A DNA stretch of 64,000 nucleotides from Hoeflea sp. (GTDB taxonomy: Bacteria; Pseudomonadota; Alphaproteobacteria; Rhizobiales; Rhizobiaceae). This document shows positions 45,913 to 53,288 of this stretch, in pieces. How positions within the stretch are numbered: position 1 is the stretch's first letter; the number at the start of each line of letters is the position of its first letter. The translations under genes were made by a program, and so were the position numbers. The notes beneath the pieces are model-generated. The model made no database searches. It saw nothing but the letters and a program-made list of their open reading frames with translations, and had not been told where the DNA came from. The stretch is from assembly GCF_002733955.1 (NCBI RefSeq), contig NZ_NVXQ01000010.1, forward strand, positions 4,163 through 68,162. The letters are read 5' to 3'.

Positions 45913-46707
45913 CGCACCTTTGCTGAATTGATAGCCCAATGTTATGTTCGTACATATCGCCGATACCCGCAACAGGTCGGTCCGCGGCTGTAAGTAGCAC
46001 CCCAACAGTGGGGTCGAAACCGTACATTCAGTGGTCGCAATTTTCGGTTTCGCTGGGCTGAGGCAAGTAAGCGGGCGGCTAGATCACAGAAGCACGCATC
46101 AAGCACTATTGGGGTCGGCAGCTTCAAGCAACTTCTGTCCTTCGTGCAAATATTCCAGACGGCACCGGCCCCGTATACCCATATATCATGAGTTATGCGA
46201 GACAACTCGTCGCTGCGTCTTCCAAGACGCACGCGTCATCTGTTAACCATTCCGGAGCCCTGTTCCGGATACGTTCTTTTTTGGCTTGCCGGACAAGCAG
46301 CTCCAGGATATCTGTTGACCGTCGCCAGAAACTAAATTTCTGCAGTGATTTAACGGCCCCCGTCGATGCTGCAAACATCGAACGAGGGCCTAACCCGCAA
46401 CCTTGGTAAGAAGGCCGAAGGCTATGTTGACCTTTATCGTGATCTCCCCAGATGGGGAAGACCAGTCCCACCCCTCTCCTGTGTTTGAAGCCCGATCACA
46501 GCGACGCTCAACGTGGACCAGTGACCCATTACGGTCACCCATCACTCTCTCTCGCTACTGATCATTTCACTTCATCGCGATAGTGCCAGTTCTTCGCCGA
46601 CATCAGCGGTTCGGTTGCCCGTTTCGGGCAGCCAATGCGGAAATTATTTCCGCATACGAACCTCCATGCCTGCCTGGCTGCCGTCATCGCTCCAACAGGA
46701 GATTTCC

Positions 46708-47619
46708 ATGACCAAGACCAAACTCACGACAACCACGTCACCCTTATATGCGTTTTCCGCAGACACACCGGAACTGAGGCAGAAGTTCTGTGCGTTCATC
46801 AATGAGCTTGTCGAAGGCCCCATGTCGGCAGAAGCCTTTACGCAAGCGCTGTCTGGCGGCATTGCTGACCTAGCTACCACGCTTCGCTCCCTGCCAGCAC
46901 TTGAAGGTCGACTGATCGAATTCGGCATTGCTGCCGTCGCTAGGTGCAATCCGGACCTCAAGGTGCTGACCCAGAACCTGAGATTGCCCGTCTCACCAAC
47001 CGCGCTAAAACTGGTCGAGTTGAACCACGCCGAAAATTTCCGAGCGTTGACATTCGACTCCGATATGGGCGGCCGCAAGACGTACACGCCTGACCTTGTC
47101 ATTCTCAATGAGCGTACCGGCACGGCGCATATCGTCGATGCCAAGCGCAGCGTTTACACTTATGACCGCGTACGGCTTGATGATCTGCAAAACCGTATGA
47201 AAGCAGCGGGCCTTGTCCTGCCAGACTTTCTTTACAAAGAGCACAAACGCCTCGTCACGAAAGAAGTCAGGGTCGTCATCCTCACTGCTGACAATCGGAA
47301 AACTGATCTGAATGGCGGCATCTGGCATATCTCGCAGTTGGACCACCTCGTGGAAGTGGAGGGTGCGGGCGCTGCAATCGCCCGCCTTCAGACAGAGTTC
47401 CATTTCTGTATTGAAGCGAACTGGAAAAAGGCGTGCGAGACATTTGCGCAGTCCCGCAAATTGCCGATAGCTGCCTTGGATCAGGTCGAGGCCGAGCTCG
47501 ATGATGTGGTGTCAGATAAAGAGGATGAGCAGTCCTTTGACGACGCTAATGCCATCGACGCCAGCGCCAATCGATCGATGATCAGGCTGGGCTTCCCTCA
47601 AGCGCCCACACGGCACTGA
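46708..47619 (+). CDS. Hypothetical protein with a PD-(D/E)XK nuclease-like motif
   Basis: ATG at 46708 follows the RBS aggag. Contains E(x)n...YTPDLVILNERTGTAHIVDAKRS, i.e. PD at 47089-47094 and DAK at 47137-47145 with 14 residues between them. Acidic C-terminal tail. Confidence 0.45.
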   Translation: MTKTKLTTTTSPLYAFSADTPELRQKFCAFINELVEGPMSAEAFTQALSGGIADLATTLRSLPALEGRLIEFGIAAVARCNPDLKVLTQNLRLPVSPTALKLVELNHAENFRALTFDSDMGGRKTYTPDLVILNERTGTAHIVDAKRSVYTYDRVRLDDLQNRMKAAGLVLPDFLYKEHKRLVTKEVRVVILTADNRKTDLNGGIWHISQLDHLVEVEGAGAAIARLQTEFHFCIEANWKKACETFAQSRKLPIAALDQVEAELDDVVSDKEDEQSFDDANAIDASANRSMIRLGFPQAPTRH

Positions 47620-47703
47620 CCAGCACTCCGCCCACTTACACATCAACTCTTTTGTTCACGACACCCGCCGATCTTAACGGTCTGGCGACGGGAGAATCTT
47701 GTC

Positions 47704-48180
47704 ATGCGTAAATCCGATCCCAACATCCCCAACAGCAACATCATCGCGTTTCCAAAACAGCAGCCAAAGCGTCTCTCAGGTGCCGCAGTCTACCTGCAAC
47801 AACCGGCTGCTCGCACGCCCAAGCGGAAGCAGGGCAAACCCCAAACCCGACTTCTGGTTCACGGCAGCGCGGCCAATGACGTGCTACAGCGAAATCGCCG
47901 GCGCGTTGAAATCCTGACTACAAAGGGCGACCCCACGCCCGAGCTGATCGACGAGCTGGCTCCGGGACTCGTCCGGAATGTCCTCCGCCGCGTCGGATCA
48001 GGTCAGTGCACCAAGACCAATCTGCCGAAGCCTCTGCGGAGGCGGCTCGATCTGATGTGCCAGTTCGGGCATCCGGCCGCCTTGATTATTAAAGACTGGC
48101 TCGACGGAAACAGGCGGTTCCTGCCCTCCAACCTACAGACCATTGCCGAGTATTCCACATGCGCCTTGGAGGAAAAGTGA
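47704..48180 (+). CDS. Hypothetical basic 158-aa protein, translationally coupled to the next gene
   Basis: The stop TGA overlaps the next ATG (TGATG at 48178-48182). No family recognised. Confidence 0.4.
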   Translation: MRKSDPNIPNSNIIAFPKQQPKRLSGAAVYLQQPAARTPKRKQGKPQTRLLVHGSAANDVLQRNRRRVEILTTKGDPTPELIDELAPGLVRNVLRRVGSGQCTKTNLPKPLRRRLDLMCQFGHPAALIIKDWLDGNRRFLPSNLQTIAEYSTCALEEK

Positions 48181-51028
48181 TGGGCACGATCAGCAAACGC
48201 GTTTCCAAATACCTCCTCGCCCGCCAACAGCGAGCCGCGCGGCTGGATGTCTTTGGTGATGCCCTGGACGCTGGCATTCTTGAACGCACACCACTCGGTG
48301 AGACCGAGCACAGCGGTGCAGTCTGGAAACTTGCGACCGAAACAGCAGCGCACCTCTCCGGTGATGTCGACCACGACCGGGAAGCGATCCGTTCGCTTCT
48401 TGAAGTTTCTTCGCGAAACAGGAAGCAGATCGAAAAACGGCTCGAAGCCGGTGATCTGGGTGGGTTTAAAGAGGATGAAGAAAGCGTTGGCGAAGCCTTC
48501 GCCACATCCGACAAATCCGCTGGCGACGCCGCTGGGCATTCCGACACGGCGACCGAGGTTGGCGGCGGAAGTGAGCCGTCCGCAAATCTGACGTCCAAAG
48601 AAGATGGGTCGAAATCAGGTAAGGGTACTCCAGCCACTATGTCCCCCGCGAAACTGGCAGCACTTCGCGATCAGGTCCTGTCAATCATTGCGGGCTTTGC
48701 ACCGGTATTGAAGGTTCCAGAAGTCGCGGCGGCGCTGCTGCTCGCAAGGGCAATCGAGAGGGATGGGCATGCCGTTGATCGATTGCTCTCGATTATGAAA
48801 TCCCGGAAATCGATTGTTGCCCTCCAGGTACCAGTCCGGGACTTCGAACGCCACTTCGGTCATCTTCTCGAAGACGGGCTCGTGATGCCATTCTATGTGT
48901 CGCTCGAAACGATCGCGGAGGGGCCATCCCTTGTCGGGCGCTACAAACCGCTCGCCGATTCAAAGCCGCGTAAATCCTTCAGCTGCTTCTCAGGTGCTTT
49001 GTTGAAACGGTACAGCGACGATGACGAACTCCGCAGCATCATCTCGAAGAGGGTTCTGACGGCATTCAAACCGCTGATCATCTGTGATGAACGCAATCGG
49101 CCGCTGCCAGAACGACTTTCCGCTGTCGCCGACATCGCGATCACGGGAAGCGGTATTGATTGCAGCCTGATCGCAGATGTTCTCGCAATCTGTCACGACA
49201 TCCCGATCGGTCGCTCCTGGTTCCTGATGAAAGAGCTCGGCTTTGAACCGCAGCATCTAGGAATTGATGATCTCGCGATCGCCATCCGTCCCGGTCGCTC
49301 ACTGACCAGGATCATTTCAGTTCTGGCGACGCTTGAAGCCGAAAACAGGGCAACGGCCGAAGCCAAGGAAGATGAGGAGAAGGAGAACAACATGGGCTCT
49401 CTGATGAAGCGCTCGGAAGCGAGAGAAATACACTGGCTGTTTCGACATCATCGAGCCCGTCAAAGAGACTGGCGGGGCGGATACGGGCAACGGGAATTGC
49501 GCGCAACAGCGAGGCAAACCGCCCACTGGCAAGGGCCAGCTGTTCGTTGAGCGGCTCGCTGGCTATGGCGATGCCCGGCAATGGGCGCTTGATCTCAAGA
49601 CTGATCTTGAGGCGTACAATGACAAAGAGGTCGAGTGGTCCGATCTCAGTTCACGGCTGCTGCTCTCTGGTCCACCCGGCACCGGCAAAACAACATTTGC
49701 CAGAGCGCTCTGCAACACCCTGAGTGTCCCTCTGATCGCGACGTCGGTGGCGAGATGGCTTGAGACGTCACATCTTGGGGATGTTCTGGCAGCAATGAAC
49801 ACGACATTCGAACAAGCAAGAGAGTCAGCACCCTGCATTCTGTTCATCGACGAAGTCGACAACATTGGAAGTCGCGGCAGCGGCGACCGAGCTTACGATG
49901 ATTATTGGTCGAGCATCGTCAATCGCATGCTCGAATTGCTCGATGGAGCTGCAAAAACCGAGGGTGTCATTGTCATTGGCGCTACAAACCGACCGGACAA
50001 GATCGACCCGGCAATTCTCCGCTCAGGCCGCCTTGAGAAACACATTGTTGTCCCGCCCCCGGATACCGATGCACTGGTCCAGATCATTGCACATCATCTC
50101 GGGAGCGATCTCGAAGTCGTCCTGGAAAGCACTGAGGTCGGCGGGTCAGTCGGTCGGACCAAGTCACCTGCGGCATTGGCCGAACTCCGCAACACCACAG
50201 TCGACAACCGCAACGCCCGCCCCTGTGAAGACCGTGCAGGAGTGCTTGCTAATGGATGAGTCCCATCTCTCAGCCGCCAACCCAGATTGGAACCCGGTGC
50301 TCAAACCCCTGGCATTGGCTGCCGCTGGCAAGACCGGTGCAGACATCGAGCGTCTGATCCGCGAAGCACGCCAAAAAGCGCGTCGTGAAAAGCGACCGCT
50401 CACCTACAACGACATCCAAGAAGCACTCACCGCTGGTCAGGCGGATATGTCACCAGCACTGATCTGGCGAATTGCAGTTCACGAGGCTGGCCATGCTTTG
50501 GCTTGGATTGCATTCGACATCGCTACTGTTCAGACCGTGACCGTTGGAAATGGCTCAGGCGGTTTCGTTGAAAGTGATATTCGAACGGATGTCGTTCAGA
50601 CAGAAGAGTGGCTCAACAAGATGATCGCCTGTGCGCTTGCCGGCAGGTCGGCGGAAAAGCTCATCTTCGGCGATTGCGTCCTGGGGTCTGGCGGCAGTGA
50701 ACAGTCTGACCTTGCCCGCGCCACGAGACTAGCAACAGATGCCGAGGCTAATCTCGGCTTCGGGCAAGCGCAGCCATTGTTGTATCGTTCGATGGATGCG
50801 CAGCCGTCGATCCTCTCCCTCGATCGTCAGCTTGCACAGCACGTCCACGCCCGACTTGAGGCTGGGGAGGCCTTGGCTACCAAATTGCTGTCGCAGCATC
50901 GTAGCGCACTGCTGGCATTGGCAACCCGCCTTGCTCATGCGAAGACCCTTGATGGAGGCGAAGTGCGATCATTGCTTGCTCTGGAAATGAATGTCGTCAC
51001 ACCGGGTTCCAAAGGACCGGCGCCCTGA
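48180..51028 (+). pseudogene. Soluble FtsH-like AAA+ ATPase / M41 zinc metalloprotease with a ~420-aa N-terminal domain; reading frame broken twice (frames 0 -> 1 -> 2)
   Basis: Frame 0 (48180-49550) carries the N-terminal domain. Frame 1 carries Walker A GPPGTGKT (49669-49692), Walker B ILFIDEVD and the second region of homology GATNRPDKIDPAILRSGR, and ends at 50259. Frame 2 carries the lid GKTGADIERLIREA and HEAGH (50480-50494) through to 51028. There is no ATG/GTG/TTG in frame 1 upstream of Walker A, and no TM helices. Confidence 0.6.
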
Positions 51029-51237
51029 AACTGCGATTCAGAATTCGGCTTCTGCGTTACCAGAACCGGCGCCCGCGATTCCAAACCGGGCGCCAGCGAT
51101 TCTGAATGCCGGATTGGCGATTCCGATCCAGGGTTCGCCGAATCAGATATCAGTCCCCGCGTTGCCAGAGCCCGCCTTGCCGATTCCCACTCCAGCGCAG
51201 CCGATTCCAAACTGCAATTCTGCGATTCAGGTCAGAG
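51028..51237. repeat. Array of ten contiguous 21-bp repeats with the core GCGATTC (GANTC)
   Basis: Seven-nt cores sit at 51033+21k (k=0..9): GCGATTC, GCGTTAC, GCGATTC, GCGATTC, GCGATTC, CCGAATC, GCGTTGC, CCGATTC, CCGATTC, GCGATTC. The flanks are variable. Confidence 0.8.
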
Positions 51238-51323
51238 GATCAGCCGCCTTCACGATCATGATTTGCGTGAAGCCGTGAATCAGCTAACCGAGGACCAGGG
51301 CGGGCCCTCTTTCTGGAAGGCCT

Positions 51324-51554
51324 ATGATGACGAAAAGACACAAACGAAAACCGGAACTGACACCTGCGCAGATTGATGATCTCGTTGCCCGGTTGACACA
51401 CCTACATAAGGACTTGGTTCCTCTGCTGTGCGAGCTAAAGCCGCAGTCCGAACACTACAATGCGGTCGTTGACATCAACGATTCCCTGGCCAGCGCAATC
51501 CGCAAGATCTCGGGCGATGAGCCGATATGGATGCAGCCCCGGATCAGCCGTTAG
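51324..51554 (+). CDS. Hypothetical 76-aa protein between the two repeat arrays
   Basis: MMTKRHKRKPELTPAQIDDLVARLTHLHKDL... has a basic N-terminus followed by helical character. No family recognised. Confidence 0.35.
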   Translation: MMTKRHKRKPELTPAQIDDLVARLTHLHKDLVPLLCELKPQSEHYNAVVDINDSLASAIRKISGDEPIWMQPRISR

Positions 51555-51793
51555 CAACGACTGGAACTCAGGCCCGTGGCTTCTCGCAACGGCGGGCGAG
51601 ACCGGGCTTAGAGATCATTGCAGCTGCCAAAGCTCCATGCCGTAGTGGCGTTTGCGGGAAGTCTTCAAAACAAAGCCGTCGCAACCTGATATCCATTGAA
51701 ACAGCGTGTGGGCAAGGCGGTTTAGGTCACCGAGACATCAAACTGACCTGCAATGGCGTGCCGGCAACCTGAAACAAGTCATGTCAATTTATC

Positions 51794-51856
51794 CTGCCGC
51801 GATTCTGAAGTCTGTCCTACCGATTCGAAACCGAGAAACCGCGATTCCTCTGTGAA
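51794..51856. repeat. Second, three-unit 21-bp GCGATTC array
   Basis: Cores GCGATTC (51799), CCGATTC (51820) and GCGATTC (51841), with the same GATTCnAAAC flank as units in the first array. Confidence 0.6.
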
Positions 51857-52003
51857 CGGCGTTTGCAGACGACGGGCTGGAATCCTCGATACCAACTCCG
51901 CCGCGCAATTGCCTTCCAAATTGTCAACATTGCAGGCAAACGGCGTTTGTTGCTTGCATCGCCGACCGTCAAAATGGGTCTCCACGATAACAAGGAGATC
52001 AGG

Positions 52004-52324
52004 ATGTCAAAGAGATCAAAGCGGGAAATCAATGCAGAGCAGAGGGCGAGGCAGCAGCGAGTAAGAGACGCGGCTCGCAATCGGCGGAGGCCGTCCAGGG
52101 ACGATCTTGCGCGAATGCTGCTATGGAAAATGATCATGAGCGCCGGGAAGCATCATCTGGGGCAACGGGAGGCGCTGGATCGGCTAAGGGATGAGATTGT
52201 TGATGGCTTGGAGCTTCAGGGTTTTGATGTCTGTGAAAGTGAAGAGGTCTTCGAAGAGCTTGCTGGGCGGTACGCTGATGGCCTATTTCCATTTCGACCG
52301 AAACGGCATCTCAAGCCAGCGTGA
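52004..52324 (+). CDS. Hypothetical 106-aa protein with a strongly basic N-terminus
   Basis: ATG at 52004 follows the RBS aaggag. MSKRSKREINAEQRARQQRVRDAARNRRRPSRDD..., with an acidic C-terminal half. Confidence 0.45.
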   Translation: MSKRSKREINAEQRARQQRVRDAARNRRRPSRDDLARMLLWKMIMSAGKHHLGQREALDRLRDEIVDGLELQGFDVCESEEVFEELAGRYADGLFPFRPKRHLKPA

Positions 52325-52655
52325 TCAGCAGCCTCTTGGCACCATCATCCAAACCGCGTTTGATACAACTCATCTGCCCTCCCCCCATTACTAGTCATAA
52401 CGGCGTTTGCGCGGGAATCGCAAAAGTGGGTTTCACAGCAACGTTGCTCTGGACTTCTCTGATTGCAATCCGGATCAATTTGGCGATGTTCACCTGGTGG
52501 AAACGCCATTATCTGTATCTATCTGGAAATCACTTCTGCTTCGCGCCCCCAACTCGATCATTTAGCATCTGCGATGCCGGTTCCCTCCCGGCTCCATATA
52601 CTCTTTTCTTTTGCGCATTATTCCGACGGCCAATGACGGCCGAAGGAGAACTCAA

Positions 52656-53288
52656 ATGGGTACTGCACAATATGATCCTGCTGCACTGGGTCGACCGGCA
52701 TGGAACGCCGGCCGGAAGGTCGGTGTGAAGAAGCCACTGAAACAGCGCCAGATATGGGCGATCCGCTTCTTCCTCGATAGAGAGGGACGCATGAGAGACC
52801 GCGCGTTGTTCGACCTCGCGTTCGATAGCAAGCTTCGAGGTTGCGATCTCGTGAAGATCAAGATCGGAACCCTCGTGACCGGGCCCGAGATTCGATCGCG
52901 CGCGATGGTGATCCAGCAGAAGACCGGTCGTCCGGTTCAGTTCGAGATCACGGCCGACGTGAGGGCCAGCCTGCTTGCCTGGCTTGAGCGAAGAGGTGGA
53001 ACGGTTGACGACTACGCCTTTCCCAGCCGGGTCGATCCTGCCGATCACCTGAGCACTCGCCAGTACGCAAGATTGGTCGATGAGTGGGTGGCCGCGATCG
53101 GCCTGCGATGCGAGGACTACGGCACACACTCGCTTCGCCGAACCAAGGCGGCGATGATCTACAAGGCGACAGGCAATCTTCGCGCGATCCAAATTCTCTT
53201 GGGCCACACCAAGATCGAGAATACCGTCAGGTATCTTGGGGTAGACATCGAGGATGCCCTGGAGCTGGCGGAGCACACGGAGATTTGA
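52656..53288 (+). CDS. Short tyrosine recombinase/integrase (210 aa)
   Basis: ATG at 52656 follows the RBS aaggag. GLRCEDYGTHSLRRTKAAMIYKATGNLRAIQILLGHTKIENTVRYLG supplies the R...HxxR...Y catalytic signature region. Confidence 0.85.
   Translation: MGTAQYDPAALGRPAWNAGRKVGVKKPLKQRQIWAIRFFLDREGRMRDRALFDLAFDSKLRGCDLVKIKIGTLVTGPEIRSRAMVIQQKTGRPVQFEITADVRASLLAWLERRGGTVDDYAFPSRVDPADHLSTRQYARLVDEWVAAIGLRCEDYGTHSLRRTKAAMIYKATGNLRAIQILLGHTKIENTVRYLGVDIEDALELAEHTEI

What the first reader, a model, noticed from the sequence alone, without database searches (positions are those of the whole stretch)
46636..51028. Candidate uncharacterised three-gene module: PD-(D/E)XK-like protein + small basic protein + soluble FtsH-like AAA+/M41 protease
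Three co-oriented genes lie between a DUF1403-ScpB pair and a repeat/recombinase region. (1) A 303-aa protein has a textbook PD...(D/E)xK arrangement (TPDLVILNERTGTAHIVDAKRS) and an acidic tail. (2) A 158-aa basic protein has a stop that overlaps the next start (TGATG). (3) A ~950-aa protein combines a long unrecognised N-terminal domain, a complete AAA+ module (GPPGTGKT, ILFIDEVD, GATNRPD..SGR) and an M41-type HEAGH peptidase domain, with no TM helices, unlike housekeeping FtsH. A nuclease-like protein paired with an NTPase-protease resembles the sensor/effector logic of conflict (defence or addiction) systems. I do not recognise this trio as a named system. The frame breaks reported in the separate finding for 49405-50259 mean this copy may be decaying.
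Basis: partly seen in the sequence, partly recalled or inferred. Interest (0 to 1): 0.7.

Follow-up and report, generated by a model that had tools for sequence, protein, structure and literature searches.

The report
Nuclease plus split soluble FtsH module
The flagged genes are one copy, broken in its ATPase gene, of an undescribed module carried by Rhizobiaceae genomic islands and plasmids: a nuclease-like protein, a soluble FtsH-type protease naturally split into two genes, two small proteins, a structured non-coding element and a phased array of methylation-site repeats. Its function is still unknown.

Summary
The genes exist and their linkage is not chance. In every one of about 50 related loci with enough DNA, the order gA (PD-(D/E)XK-like), gB (small, basic), gC (AAA+) and gD (AAA-lid + M41 protease) is kept.

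- The "~950-aa FtsH-like protein" is two overlapping genes in all relatives, split inside the AAA+ lid. Only one frame break is damage: an 8-bp deletion in gC at about 49424-49430.
- The module is larger. It includes a ~270-nt structured element upstream, which folds on the minus strand. Of 37 modelled pairs, 25 show compensatory changes, and there is one hit per locus. Downstream lie CGATTC hexamers phased at exactly 21 bp, followed by a fifth gene, gE, the best-conserved protein.
- The module sits next to the integrase of tRNA-inserted islands that carry defence genes, or on repABC plasmids (beside or within ~8 kb of repA in the two where rep genes were seen).

gA, gB, gE and the non-coding element match no Pfam, PADLOC, PHROG, NCBIfam or Rfam entry; no literature match was found.

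Best guess (confidence 0.4): a protease-gated nuclease switch serving conflict or maintenance of the mobile element. The window copy is probably inactive.

The parts
46230..46500 (-). Conserved structured non-coding element, a candidate ncRNA. The covariance-model core is 46320-46481; the anchor GTTAACCAT is at 46242-46250 on the + strand.
   Evidence: The anchor is present 395-562 nt upstream of gA in all 48 sequences checked (window plus 47 loci). Model R1 gives exactly one minus-strand hit per locus in 51 of 51 sources, at 62-164 bits; the window scores 136 bits and non-seed loci also hit. 90.8% of cells are paired, 25 of 37 pairs have compensatory changes, and 0 of 500 shuffles reach this. 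G-U cells number 280 against 40 A-C cells. It is not coding and has no Rfam match.
46637..46653 (.). Palindrome GCGGAAATTATTTCCGC in the gA leader, a candidate operator.
   Evidence: GCGGAAAT.ATTTCCG is conserved about 55-70 nt upstream of the gA ATG across genera.
46708..47619 (+). gA: 303-aa PD-(D/E)XK-like protein with an acidic disordered linker and a conserved C-terminal tail (IRLGFPQAP, 47581-47607).
   Evidence: E66, E71, P128, D129, D144 and K146 are invariant. The model shows an alpha-beta-beta-beta-alpha-beta core, and the Foldseek top list is mostly PD-(D/E)XK nucleases but is not significant. No Pfam, PHROG, PADLOC or NCBIfam hit.
47704..48180 (+). gB: 158-aa basic protein with an N-terminal NIIAFP motif (47737-47754), a variable middle and a conserved ~60-aa C-terminal domain. 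Its stop overlaps the gC start.
   Evidence: Alignment A9. The same stop/start overlap is annotated in L001 and L002. No family hit.
48180..50259 (+). gC: N-domain, then a degenerate Walker-A-less AAA-like domain, then an active AAA+ domain carrying only the first lid helix. In this window it is frameshifted by a net 8-bp deletion at about 49424-49430 (frame 0 to 49550; frame 1 from about 49420).
   Evidence: Frames. Deletion relative to L003. Intact homologues are 640-720 aa. Walker A and B, N607, R618 and R621 are invariant. In the model of a 90%-identical intact homologue (P0122), Rix7/p97/Cdc48 align over about 500 columns at E 3e-14. Best NCBIfam family is FtsH_fam, positions 198-345.
50252..51028 (+). 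gD: 258 aa, comprising the rest of the AAA+ lid (GKTGAD sensor-2 helix, 50327-50344) and an M41 zinc protease (HEAGH 50480-50494; SDLARAT 50705-50725).
   Evidence: Pfam AAA_lid_3 plus Peptidase_M41. Aligns to FtsH residues 214-463. H77, E78, H81 and D153 are identical in at least 95% of 34 homologues. It is a separate overlapping ORF in every homologous locus.
51034..51229 (+). Array 1: CGATTC (CGAWTC) hexamers on a 21-bp lattice, filling 8 of 10 slots.
   Evidence: Across loci, 94 of 172 successive spacings are exactly 21 bp and 26 are exactly 42 bp.
51324..51554 (+). 76-aa ORF between the two arrays, found only in the closest Hoeflea relatives.
   Evidence: tblastn hits only in L003-L007, at 79-86% identity. 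Function unknown; may not be a gene.
51770..51847 (+). Conserved TCAATTTAYCCT box followed by array 2 (CGATTC at 51800, 51821 and 51842), upstream of gE.
   Evidence: The arrays invert together with gE in L026 and L032; L033 also has a minus-strand array.
52004..52324 (+). gE: 106-aa protein with a basic N-terminal region and a conserved C-terminal LFPFRPKRHL (52283-52312).
   Evidence: Present in about 39 loci at 48-90% identity, higher than gA-gD across genera. No Pfam, PHROG or PDB match.

Best explanation
The window holds one copy of a conserved accessory module of Rhizobiaceae mobile elements. These elements are tRNA-inserted islands that carry defence genes, and repABC plasmids.

Shown:
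- gC and gD together supply one complete FtsH-type AAA+ module plus an M41 zinc protease. They have no membrane anchor, and gC carries an extra, degenerate AAA-like domain upstream.
- The split falls inside the AAA+ lid. Neither protein has a whole ATPase module alone, so they must work as a complex.
- gA keeps an invariant PD-(D/E)XK catalytic motif.
- The module also includes a structured element upstream, a phased array of CGATTC sites, and gE.

Inferred:
- gC/gD is a cytosolic unfoldase-protease that acts as the switch of the system.
- gA is the nuclease effector.
- gB is translationally coupled to gC and carries a conserved N-terminal NIxPFP tag. It acts as an adaptor or as a labile inhibitor.
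- The conserved terminal tags of gA, gB and gE are docking or degradation signals for the protease.
- Degradation of the inhibitor releases or tunes the nuclease. The purpose is either defence against invading DNA or punishment of element loss.
- gE binds the CGATTC array. Each hexamer contains GANTC, the site of the host CcrM methyltransferase. This could tie expression to the methylation or replication state of the element.

In this window gC is frameshifted, so the switch is probably dead here.
For: - Synteny A-(B)-C-D holds in every locus with enough DNA, including a distant relative.
- gC and gD are always separate ORFs, with two different frame relations (8-nt and 4-nt overlaps). This argues for translational coupling rather than programmed frameshifting.
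- gC matches FtsH_fam positions 198-345 and gD matches 356-597. gD aligns to FtsH from the sensor-2 helix onward.
- Catalytic residues are invariant or nearly so: Walker A/B, sensor 1 and the arginine fingers in gC; HExxH plus Asp in gD; D129 and D144-x-K146 in gA.
- The pore loop is YLG or FLG in most clades.
- gC has a tandem-AAA fold like Rix7/p97.
- The terminal motifs are conserved even in distant L051.
- gC is the gene most often broken while gA stays intact: window, L004, L022, L024, L049 and L053, plus split products. This fits an activator or sensor that is costly to keep, and does not fit an antidote.
- Context: tRNA, integrase, c3, then the module, then cargo with PDC-S37, HKD+Snf2, type I RM, a methyltransferase and HipA. 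On plasmids where rep genes were seen, it lies beside or within ~8 kb of repA.
Against: - No activity of any component has been shown.
- The nuclease fold of gA is not significant by Foldseek (best E 0.09; model pLDDT 65.5).
- The module has a fixed position next to three unrelated integrase types. That looks more like an element backbone than like a defence cargo.
- Known defence systems do not usually come with a cis repeat array and a structured upstream element.
- The shared-tag idea rests on short motifs only.
- Neither gE binding to CGATTC nor any role for methylation has been tested.
- In the window's own clade the pore loop is not aromatic (SHLG), so translocation competence is uncertain there.
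Confidence: 0.4

Rival explanations
1. The module is the life-cycle or maintenance backbone of the islands and plasmids, not a conflict system. The CGATTC arrays are a centromere-like or origin-like site bound by gE. gA processes DNA at that site. gC/gD remodels or removes the nucleoprotein complex, much as ClpX or ClpA act on MuA, RepA or TrfA. The upstream element is a regulatory RNA that sets the on/off state of the element, as the CI RNA of satellite P4 does.
For: - The module has a constant position next to the integrase, combined with three integrase types, while the cargo varies.
- On plasmids where rep genes were seen it lies close to repABC.
- The phased direct repeats lie directly after gD and in front of gE, and invert together with gE.
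- There are two arrays separated by a spacer, as in some satellite origins.
Against: - No primase, helicase, initiator, partition NTPase or relaxase homologue is present. The AAA+ domain is classic-clade FtsH type with an intact protease.
- The hexamer is invariant across modules that are less than 50% identical, and across divergent copies within one genome: Naph1 has 2, BAL378 has 3, BRH_c9 has 3. This is the opposite of iterons or centromeres, which diverge together with their binding protein.
- The spacer is not AT-rich.
- The element persists with gC broken.
Confidence: 0.27
2. The module is an establishment (leading-region-like) unit. The structured element acts as single-stranded DNA, not RNA. 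It would be an Frpo, ssi or sso-like signal on the strand that enters a new cell. It would drive early expression of gA-gE or priming of the complementary strand. The proteins would then counter host defences or help the element settle.
For: - The folded strand is the template strand of gA-gE and lies upstream of them. This is the geometry of single-strand promoters in plasmid leading regions (together with published knowledge of Frpo).
- Neighbours on plasmids include an orphan methyltransferase, WGR and Fic genes.
Against: - The element has many short independent hairpins rather than one long fold-back carrying -35 and -10 boxes.
- G-U pairs are conserved or invariant, for example GU in 51 of 51 sequences at one pair. 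That is typical of RNA.
- 8 of the 11 plasmids are typed non-mobilizable.
- No relaxase or T4SS gene recurred in the 10-kb flanks.
Confidence: 0.1
3. In this window the genes are simply a decaying remnant with no current function, and any conservation elsewhere is irrelevant to this locus.
For: - gC carries an 8-bp deletion. There is no in-frame start codon before Walker A in the new frame.
- The surroundings are rearranged. There is no tRNA, c3 or full integrase nearby.
Against: - gA, gB, gD, gE, the structured element (136 bits) and both arrays are intact.
- A single lesion in an otherwise complete 5.6-kb block, 86.5% identical to an intact relative, indicates recent inactivation rather than old debris.
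- An assembly error cannot be excluded.
Confidence: 0.08

Closest known systems
FtsH (AAA+/M41 membrane protease; TIGR01241)
   Same: Classic-clade AAA+ domain with GPPGTGKT, hhhhDE and SRH arginines. An M41 domain with HEAGH plus a third-ligand Asp follows in the same order. It is the best NCBIfam and PDB match for both gC and gD.
   Different: There are no transmembrane segments and no periplasmic domain. The polypeptide is split inside the AAA+ lid into two genes. gC has an extra N-domain and a degenerate AAA-like domain. Scores are far below the family cutoff (126 and 64 bits against 600). It is encoded on mobile elements with a nuclease-like partner.
p97/Cdc48/VAT/Rix7 (type II tandem AAA ATPases)
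   Same: The gC model aligns over about 500 columns, covering both its middle domain and its AAA+ domain (E about 3e-14). This matches an arrangement with an inactive first ring and an active second ring.
   Different: The first domain lacks Walker A entirely. There is no double-psi-barrel N domain. The second ring is completed by, and attached to, a separate M41 protease subunit.
IetAS (Gao_Iet; AAA+ ATPase IetA plus subtilase IetS, anti-phage)
   Same: It has the same logic of an AAA+ ATPase paired with a protease on mobile DNA. The gC AAA domain hits the IetA models (4e-22).
   Different: The hit covers the generic AAA core only (76 bits against a 510-bit cutoff). The protease here is an M41 metalloprotease, not an S8 serine protease. 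IetAS has no nuclease, no gB or gE, no RNA element and no repeat array.
McrBC-type restriction (AAA+ motor plus PD-(D/E)XK McrC)
   Same: It pairs an AAA+ ring with an N-terminal accessory domain and a PD-(D/E)XK protein. McrC appears in the gA Foldseek list (rank 11, E 0.23).
   Different: McrB is a GTP-specific AAA+ protein of another clade with no protease. No sequence similarity was detected. The gA match is not significant.
Clusters of methylation sites read by a binding protein (SeqA at hemimethylated GATC in E. coli; GcrA at methylated GANTC in Caulobacter)
   Same: The sites are short methyltransferase target motifs repeated on one face of the helix (a 21-bp lattice). CGATTC contains GANTC. 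Density is 14 per kb against 1.8 per kb in the window.
   Different: gE shows no similarity to SeqA or GcrA. Neither binding nor methylation dependence has been tested. The comparison comes from the literature, not from a test here.
Frpo / ssi / sso single-strand DNA signals of plasmids
   Same: These are strand-specific, multi-hairpin conserved elements of about 270 nt, lying upstream of co-oriented genes on their template strand.
   Different: No sequence relation is known. The architecture is many short hairpins with conserved G-U pairs, which favours RNA.

Membership tests
FtsH (TIGR01241 / PRK10733) | One polypeptide carrying AAA+ followed by M41 | tested here: not met
   gC and gD are separate overlapping ORFs in every homologous locus examined. 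The single fused product, P0189, differs by a 1-nt change in the overlap.
FtsH (TIGR01241 / PRK10733) | Two N-terminal transmembrane helices and a periplasmic domain | tested here: not met
   The gC N-terminus is a basic amphipathic helix, a hairpin and a helix, followed by an acidic disordered linker. The match to FtsH_fam starts at profile position 198. No dedicated TM predictor was run.
FtsH (TIGR01241 / PRK10733) | Score above the curated family cutoff | tested here: not met
   126.4 bits (gC) and 64.1 bits (gD) against a cutoff of 600.
FtsH (TIGR01241 / PRK10733) | Walker A/B, SRH arginines, HExxH plus Asp zinc site | tested here: met
   Invariant in 40 gC homologues; identical in at least 95% of 34 gD homologues.
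PD-(D/E)XK nuclease superfamily (gA) | Catalytic motif (P)D...(D/E)xK on consecutive beta strands, preceded by a helix carrying an acidic residue | tested here: met
   E66/E71 lie in helix 63-79, D129 lies before strand 130-134, and D144-x-K146 lies at the end of strand 139-146. All are invariant.
PD-(D/E)XK nuclease superfamily (gA) | Restriction-endonuclease-like fold with a significant structural match | tested here: inconclusive
   Most top Foldseek hits are PD-(D/E)XK enzymes (arenavirus endonuclease, SgrAI, R2 RLE, MunI, McrC, Hjc). The best E is 0.09, TM is at most 0.33 and model pLDDT is 65.5. A PDB profile search found nothing.
IetAS / Gao_Iet defence system | IetA-family ATPase above the family cutoff, with an adjacent S8 subtilase IetS | tested here: not met
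   IteA_antiphage scores 76 bits against a 510-bit cutoff. No subtilase is present; the protease is M41.
Any PADLOC v2 system | Component proteins match system HMMs | tested here: not met
   gA, gB, gD and c3 have no significant hit. gC matches only through its AAA core. gE was not scanned against PADLOC.
Type II tandem AAA ATPase (p97/Cdc48/Rix7-like) | Two stacked AAA folds in one chain | tested here: met
   Foldseek E 3e-14 over 490-550 aligned columns. The middle domain of the homologue model has pLDDT of about 85-93. The first domain has no Walker A.
Rfam RNA families (upstream element) | Match to a curated covariance model | tested here: not met
   The best overlapping match has E 0.3 and 17.5 bits against a gathering score of 41.
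Structured RNA (generic) | Base pairs kept by compensatory change, with strand asymmetry of G-U pairs | tested here: met
   25 of 37 pairs are compensatory and 90.8% of cells are paired, against 38-53% in slid controls. There are 280 G-U cells against 40 A-C cells. Expression was not testable.
Plasmid iterons / partition centromere | Phased direct repeats next to the gene of their binding protein | tested here: met
   The 21-bp lattice lies upstream of gE in nearly all loci.
Plasmid iterons / partition centromere | Repeat sequence diverges with the binding protein between compatible elements; an initiator or partition NTPase is present | tested here: not met
   The hexamer is invariant across divergent modules and across copies within one genome. 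No Rep, ParA or ParM homologue is in the module.
CcrM (GANTC) methylation sites | Motif GANTC; actual N6-adenine methylation | not testable with these tools
   Sequence only. Every hexamer is CGAWTC and so contains GANTC. Methylation state is unknown.

The most novel reading that the evidence does not exclude
The module is a previously unrecognised kind of mobile-element switch that reads the host's own cell-cycle methylation mark.
- gE binds a phased lattice of CcrM (GANTC) sites according to their methylation state.
- A dedicated ~270-nt RNA and a two-gene, double-ring soluble FtsH-type protease set the level of a PD-(D/E)XK nuclease.
- The nuclease may itself target under-methylated GANTC DNA, which is HinfI-like specificity. 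It would use the essential host methylase as the 'self' label and attack incoming DNA that lacks it.
Probability: 0.12. Interest if true: 0.9.

Novelty: new variant of a known kind. Interest (0 to 1): 0.72.

Why it matters
- **A split AAA+ module.** This would be a natural example of an AAA+ ATPase module divided between two polypeptides, with the protease on the second one. It gives a handle on how lid and sensor-2 elements work in FtsH-type machines.
- **An undescribed set of parts.** It adds a gene set and an RNA candidate to the conserved core of Rhizobiaceae defence-gene-carrying islands and repABC plasmids. These elements shape the genomes of agricultural symbionts and pathogens.
- **A possible methylation readout.** The phased GANTC lattice offers a direct test of whether mobile elements in Alphaproteobacteria read CcrM methylation, as SeqA-type systems read Dam sites in enterobacteria.

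Each part has clear mutational targets, so the hypotheses can be tested with standard genetics.

Tried and rejected
- **Programmed frameshift joining gC and gD.** Rejected. Both the +1 (8-nt overlap) and +2 (4-nt overlap, ATGA) frame relations occur, each with an ATG at the junction.
- **The second frame break as decay.** Rejected.
- **The upstream conserved block as a small minus-strand protein** (an apparent AGGAG plus GTG start and a 'KGQHSLRP' peptide). Rejected. The frame is interrupted or shifted in many loci.
- **The plus strand as the folded strand.** Rejected. The consensus fold is -12 kcal/mol against -28 for the minus strand, and plus-strand helices would carry A-C mismatches where the minus strand has G-U.
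- **An AT-rich origin between the arrays.** Not seen.
- **Searches that found nothing:**
  - megablast of the region against plasmids;
  - gA against phage GenBank and IMG/VR;
  - PDB profile searches for gA, c3 and gE;
  - PHROGs for gA, gB, the gC N-terminal region, c3 and gE;
  - promoter and terminator consensus scans;
  - four literature searches.
- **c3 (weak DUF3102).** It is not in the window and is separated from the module in the Hoeflea clade, so I did not count it as a core part.
- **First shuffle z-scores.** The per-sequence z-scores used plus-strand shuffles for both strands. They should be ignored in favour.

Full report
**1. What is in the window**

ORF listing and three-frame translation give four co-oriented genes:
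- gA, 46708-47619, 303 aa.
- gB, 47704-48180, 158 aa.
- gC, from 48180. It reads in frame 0 to a stop at 49550, and in frame 1 from about 49420 to the stop at 50257-50259.
- gD, 50252-51028, 258 aa.

Pfam finds nothing in gA, gB or the first 456 residues of gC. It finds AAA (PF00004) in the second part of gC, and AAA_lid_3 plus Peptidase_M41 in gD. The DUF1403 and ScpB genes lie on the left and a short Phage_integrase ORF lies on the right. The window matches a Hoeflea sp. contig of 74.6 kb; its gA is 100% identical to P0001.

**2. The frame breaks**

Annotated plasmid relatives carry four genes, not three. These are a ~300-aa hypothetical protein, a 126-145-aa hypothetical protein, a 660-680-aa "ATP-binding protein" and a 253-264-aa "ATP-dependent Zn protease". 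The last two overlap.

Across 41 loci with the junction present, gD always starts at an ATG. Most overlap the gC stop by 8 nt (frame +1). One clade overlaps it by 4 nt (ATGA, frame +2). Two frame relations with a start codon at each junction mean two polypeptides made by translational coupling. They do not fit a programmed frameshift or a lesion. The window has the 8-nt form, ATGGATGA.

The other break is real. Against the closest intact relative (L003, 86.5% identical over window 46228-51865), the window lacks a net 8 bp at about 49424-49430. In the new frame there is no start codon before Walker A. This copy of gC is therefore a pseudogene, unless the deletion is an assembly error.

**3. What gC and gD are**

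NCBIfam places gC on FtsH_fam positions 198-345 and gD on positions 356-597. gD aligns to solved FtsH structures from the GxxGAD sensor-2 helix through the protease domain. The split therefore falls inside the small lid subdomain of the AAA+ module. gC keeps the first lid helix, followed by a disordered tail. gD brings the remaining lid helices and the protease.

Conserved residues:
- In 40 gC homologues: Walker A, Walker B, sensor 1 and both SRH arginines are invariant.
- In 34 gD homologues: H77-E78-x-x-H81 and D153 are identical in at least 95%.

The structure model was made for P0122, an intact homologue 90% identical to the window's gC N-terminal region (mean pLDDT 70.6). It shows:
- a small N-domain (residues 1-88);
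- an acidic disordered linker;
- a well-predicted alpha/beta domain (157-400);
- a second linker carrying a conserved GCFDxIEP motif;
- the AAA+ domain.

Foldseek aligns 490-550 columns to Rix7, p97/Cdc48, VAT and Drg1 at E of about 1e-13. The middle domain is therefore a degenerate first AAA domain that lacks Walker A.

The pore-1 loop is YLG or FLG in most clades. It is SHLG, SSLG or SNLG in the window's clade.

One database product (P0189) is a gC-gD fusion. A single-base change in the overlap explains it.

**4. gA, gB and gE**

*gA.* E66, E71, P128, D129, D144 and K146 are invariant. It has a variable acidic linker and a conserved C-terminal I[RK]xGFAQxP. Its model (pLDDT 65.5) places the motif on an alpha-beta-beta-beta-alpha-beta core. 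Most top Foldseek hits are PD-(D/E)XK nucleases, but none is significant (best E 0.09). I treat the nuclease fold as likely, not shown. The family is small: 181 clusters at 50% identity among 1.84 billion proteins. All named members are Hoeflea, Rhizobium, Agrobacterium, Sinorhizobium/Ensifer, Pararhizobium and similar genera.

*gB.* It evolves fast. It keeps an N-terminal NI[IV]PFP motif and a ~60-residue C-terminal domain.

*gE.* This fifth gene is in the window at 52004-52324 (106 aa). It is present downstream of gD in about 39 loci at 48-90% identity, higher than gA-gD across genera. It ends in FPFRPKRHL.

The three terminal motifs persist in a distant relative, L051. Reading them as docking or degradation tags is my inference.

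**5. Two conserved non-coding parts**

*(a) Phased CGATTC arrays.*
- CGATTC hexamers begin directly after gD, all on the gene strand and on a 21-bp lattice.
- Of 172 successive spacings across loci, 94 are exactly 21 bp and 26 are exactly 42 bp.
- Typically, a first array has 3-8 copies. A conserved TCAATTTAYCCT box then precedes a second array of 2-3 copies in front of gE.
- The arrays invert together with gE in L026 and L032; L033 also has a minus-strand array.
- Runs of three or more phased hexamers occur only downstream of gD copies in the 20-kb loci. Three loci (L002, L008, L020) were not checked individually.
- Only the hexamer is conserved, and it is the same in modules less than 50% identical.
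- CGATTC contains GANTC. From published work, this is the target of the alphaproteobacterial CcrM methyltransferase.
- The kilobase holding the arrays has 14 GANTC sites, against a window mean of 1.8 per kb. One lattice slot is filled by CGAATC, which is still GANTC.

*(b) A structured element upstream of gA.*
- A block of about 270 nt is more conserved at the nucleotide level than the proteins are. Its anchor GTTAACCAT lies 395-562 nt before the ATG in all 48 sequences checked.
- It is not coding.
- It folds better on the minus strand: the consensus fold is -28 against -12 kcal/mol. For the window alone, the values are -98.9 kcal/mol (z -2.6) against -81.8 (z -1.5).
- A covariance model of a 163-position core with 37 pairs finds exactly one minus-strand hit in each of 51 sources. 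These include loci not used to build it (62-85 bits) and, separately, the distant L051 at 59 bits.
- On the resulting alignment, 90.8% of cells pair and 25 of 37 pairs show compensatory changes. No shuffle out of 500 reaches this, and slid controls pair at 38-53%.
- G-U cells outnumber A-C cells 280 to 40. The alignment is fitted to the model, so these counts lean towards it. The size of the effect and the non-seed hits argue that it is real.
- Rfam has no match. In the plasmid collection the block occurs only next to the module.
- A palindrome, GCGGAAAT.ATTTCCGC, lies in the gA leader (window 46637-46653).

**6. Where the module lives**

In the chromosomal loci where these genes could be identified, the usual order is:
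1. a tRNA gene (Ser, Gln or Met);
2. an integrase, either of two long tyrosine types or a large serine recombinase;
3. c3, a ~377-aa protein with a weak DUF3102 match;
4. the structured element;
5. gA to gD;
6. the arrays;
7. gE;
8. variable cargo.

The cargo includes type I restriction-modification genes, HipA, a full-length PDC-S37 protein, an HKD+Snf2 protein, a type II methyltransferase and a mads/AriA-like ATPase.

On plasmids, the module lies directly beside repABC in one record and about 8 kb from repA in another. In two further records no rep gene appeared in the stretch fetched.

Several genomes carry two or three divergent copies. The module is absent from phage GenBank records and from IMG/VR. 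The window copy sits in a rearranged setting, with no tRNA, c3 or long integrase nearby.

gC is the part most often broken:
- the window;
- L004, L022, L024 and L049;
- an IS66 insertion in L053;
- split products.

gA is not broken in any locus examined.

**7. Interpretation**

Firm conclusions:
- This is a conserved multi-part module of mobile elements.
- It contains a two-gene soluble FtsH-type protease with an extra dead AAA domain, and a protein with an invariant PD-(D/E)XK motif.
- It also contains a structured, strand-specific non-coding element and a phased lattice of GANTC-containing hexamers tied to gE.

Inferred: function. I favour a protease-gated nuclease switch used in conflict or addiction (confidence 0.4). 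The reasons are the effector-plus-NTPase logic, the defence-rich surroundings, the tag-like termini, and the pattern of gC loss with gA retained.

The main rival (0.27) is that this is the backbone that runs the life cycle of the island or plasmid. The fixed position beside different integrases speaks for that. The invariant hexamer and the lack of any replication or partition enzyme speak against a classical iteron or centromere.

A third reading (0.1) takes the structured element as a single-strand DNA signal of a leading region. The geometry fits, but the conserved G-U pairs favour RNA.

**8. Comparison with known systems and novelty**

No membership test for FtsH proper, IetAS, McrBC or any PADLOC system is met. 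The module shares domains and logic with them. Four literature searches found nothing on such a module.

I rate it a new variant of a known kind: an NTPase/protease-plus-effector module on mobile DNA. It has several parts that have no described counterpart.

Noticed in passing
window 46230-46500 (minus strand); one copy in each of L001-L051: A ~270-nt structured non-coding element upstream of gA. It is not in Rfam, shows strong covariation, and folds on the strand opposite to the operon.
   Followed up: yes
window 51034-51229 and 51800-51847; downstream of gD in nearly all loci: CGATTC hexamers on an exact 21-bp lattice. Each contains GANTC, the CcrM methylation motif. The hexamer is invariant across divergent modules.
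   Followed up: yes
window 52004-52324: gE, a 106-aa protein of no known family, follows the arrays in about 39 loci. It is better conserved than gA-gD.
   Followed up: partly
L016:8376-9509 and 29 other loci; absent from the window: c3 is a ~377-aa protein with a sub-threshold DUF3102 match. It lies directly upstream of the module in about 20 loci, and next to the integrase in the Hoeflea clade.
   Followed up: partly
window 46637-46653: A perfect palindrome, GCGGAAATTATTTCCGC, lies in the gA leader. It is conserved across genera and may be an operator.
   Followed up: no
P0189 (ENA contig, 681 aa): A gC-gD fusion product exists in one metagenomic contig. A one-base change in the 8-nt overlap explains it. 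It could be a tolerated fusion or a sequencing error.
   Followed up: partly
window ~49424-49430; L004, L022, L024, L049, L053; P0154, P0160+P0187, P0162+P0199: gC is repeatedly disrupted by independent frameshifts, splits or an IS66 insertion, while gA remains intact.
   Followed up: partly
L051:7542-7904: In a distant relative, a DUF6634 gene is inserted between gC and gD. This shows that the two halves of the AAA+ module can be separated by another gene.
   Followed up: no
gA 47581-47607, gB 47737-47754, gE 52283-52312: Three partner proteins each carry a short conserved terminal motif built around F and P residues (GFxQxP, NIxxFP, FPFRP). They may be a shared docking or degron signal.
   Followed up: partly
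window 51324-51554: A 76-aa ORF lies between the two arrays and is conserved only in the five closest Hoeflea loci. It has a weak PHROG hit of unknown function.
   Followed up: partly
L039:986-7015, L029:17005-20127, L036:9878-12349, L020:12859-14313, L035:6868-8112: Cargo next to the module includes PDC-S37, HKD+Snf2, type I HsdR and HsdM, and HipA. These elements are defence-gene-rich islands inserted at tRNA-Ser, tRNA-Gln and tRNA-Met genes.
   Followed up: partly
L001:4719-4982, L048:14298-14606, L049:10690-10983, L050:16239-16427: A small WGR-domain gene recurs within a few kb of the module on four plasmids.
   Followed up: no
window 52611-53288: A short (225-aa) Phage_integrase ORF lies just right of gE. 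It overlaps a longer antisense ORF and is probably a remnant.
   Followed up: no
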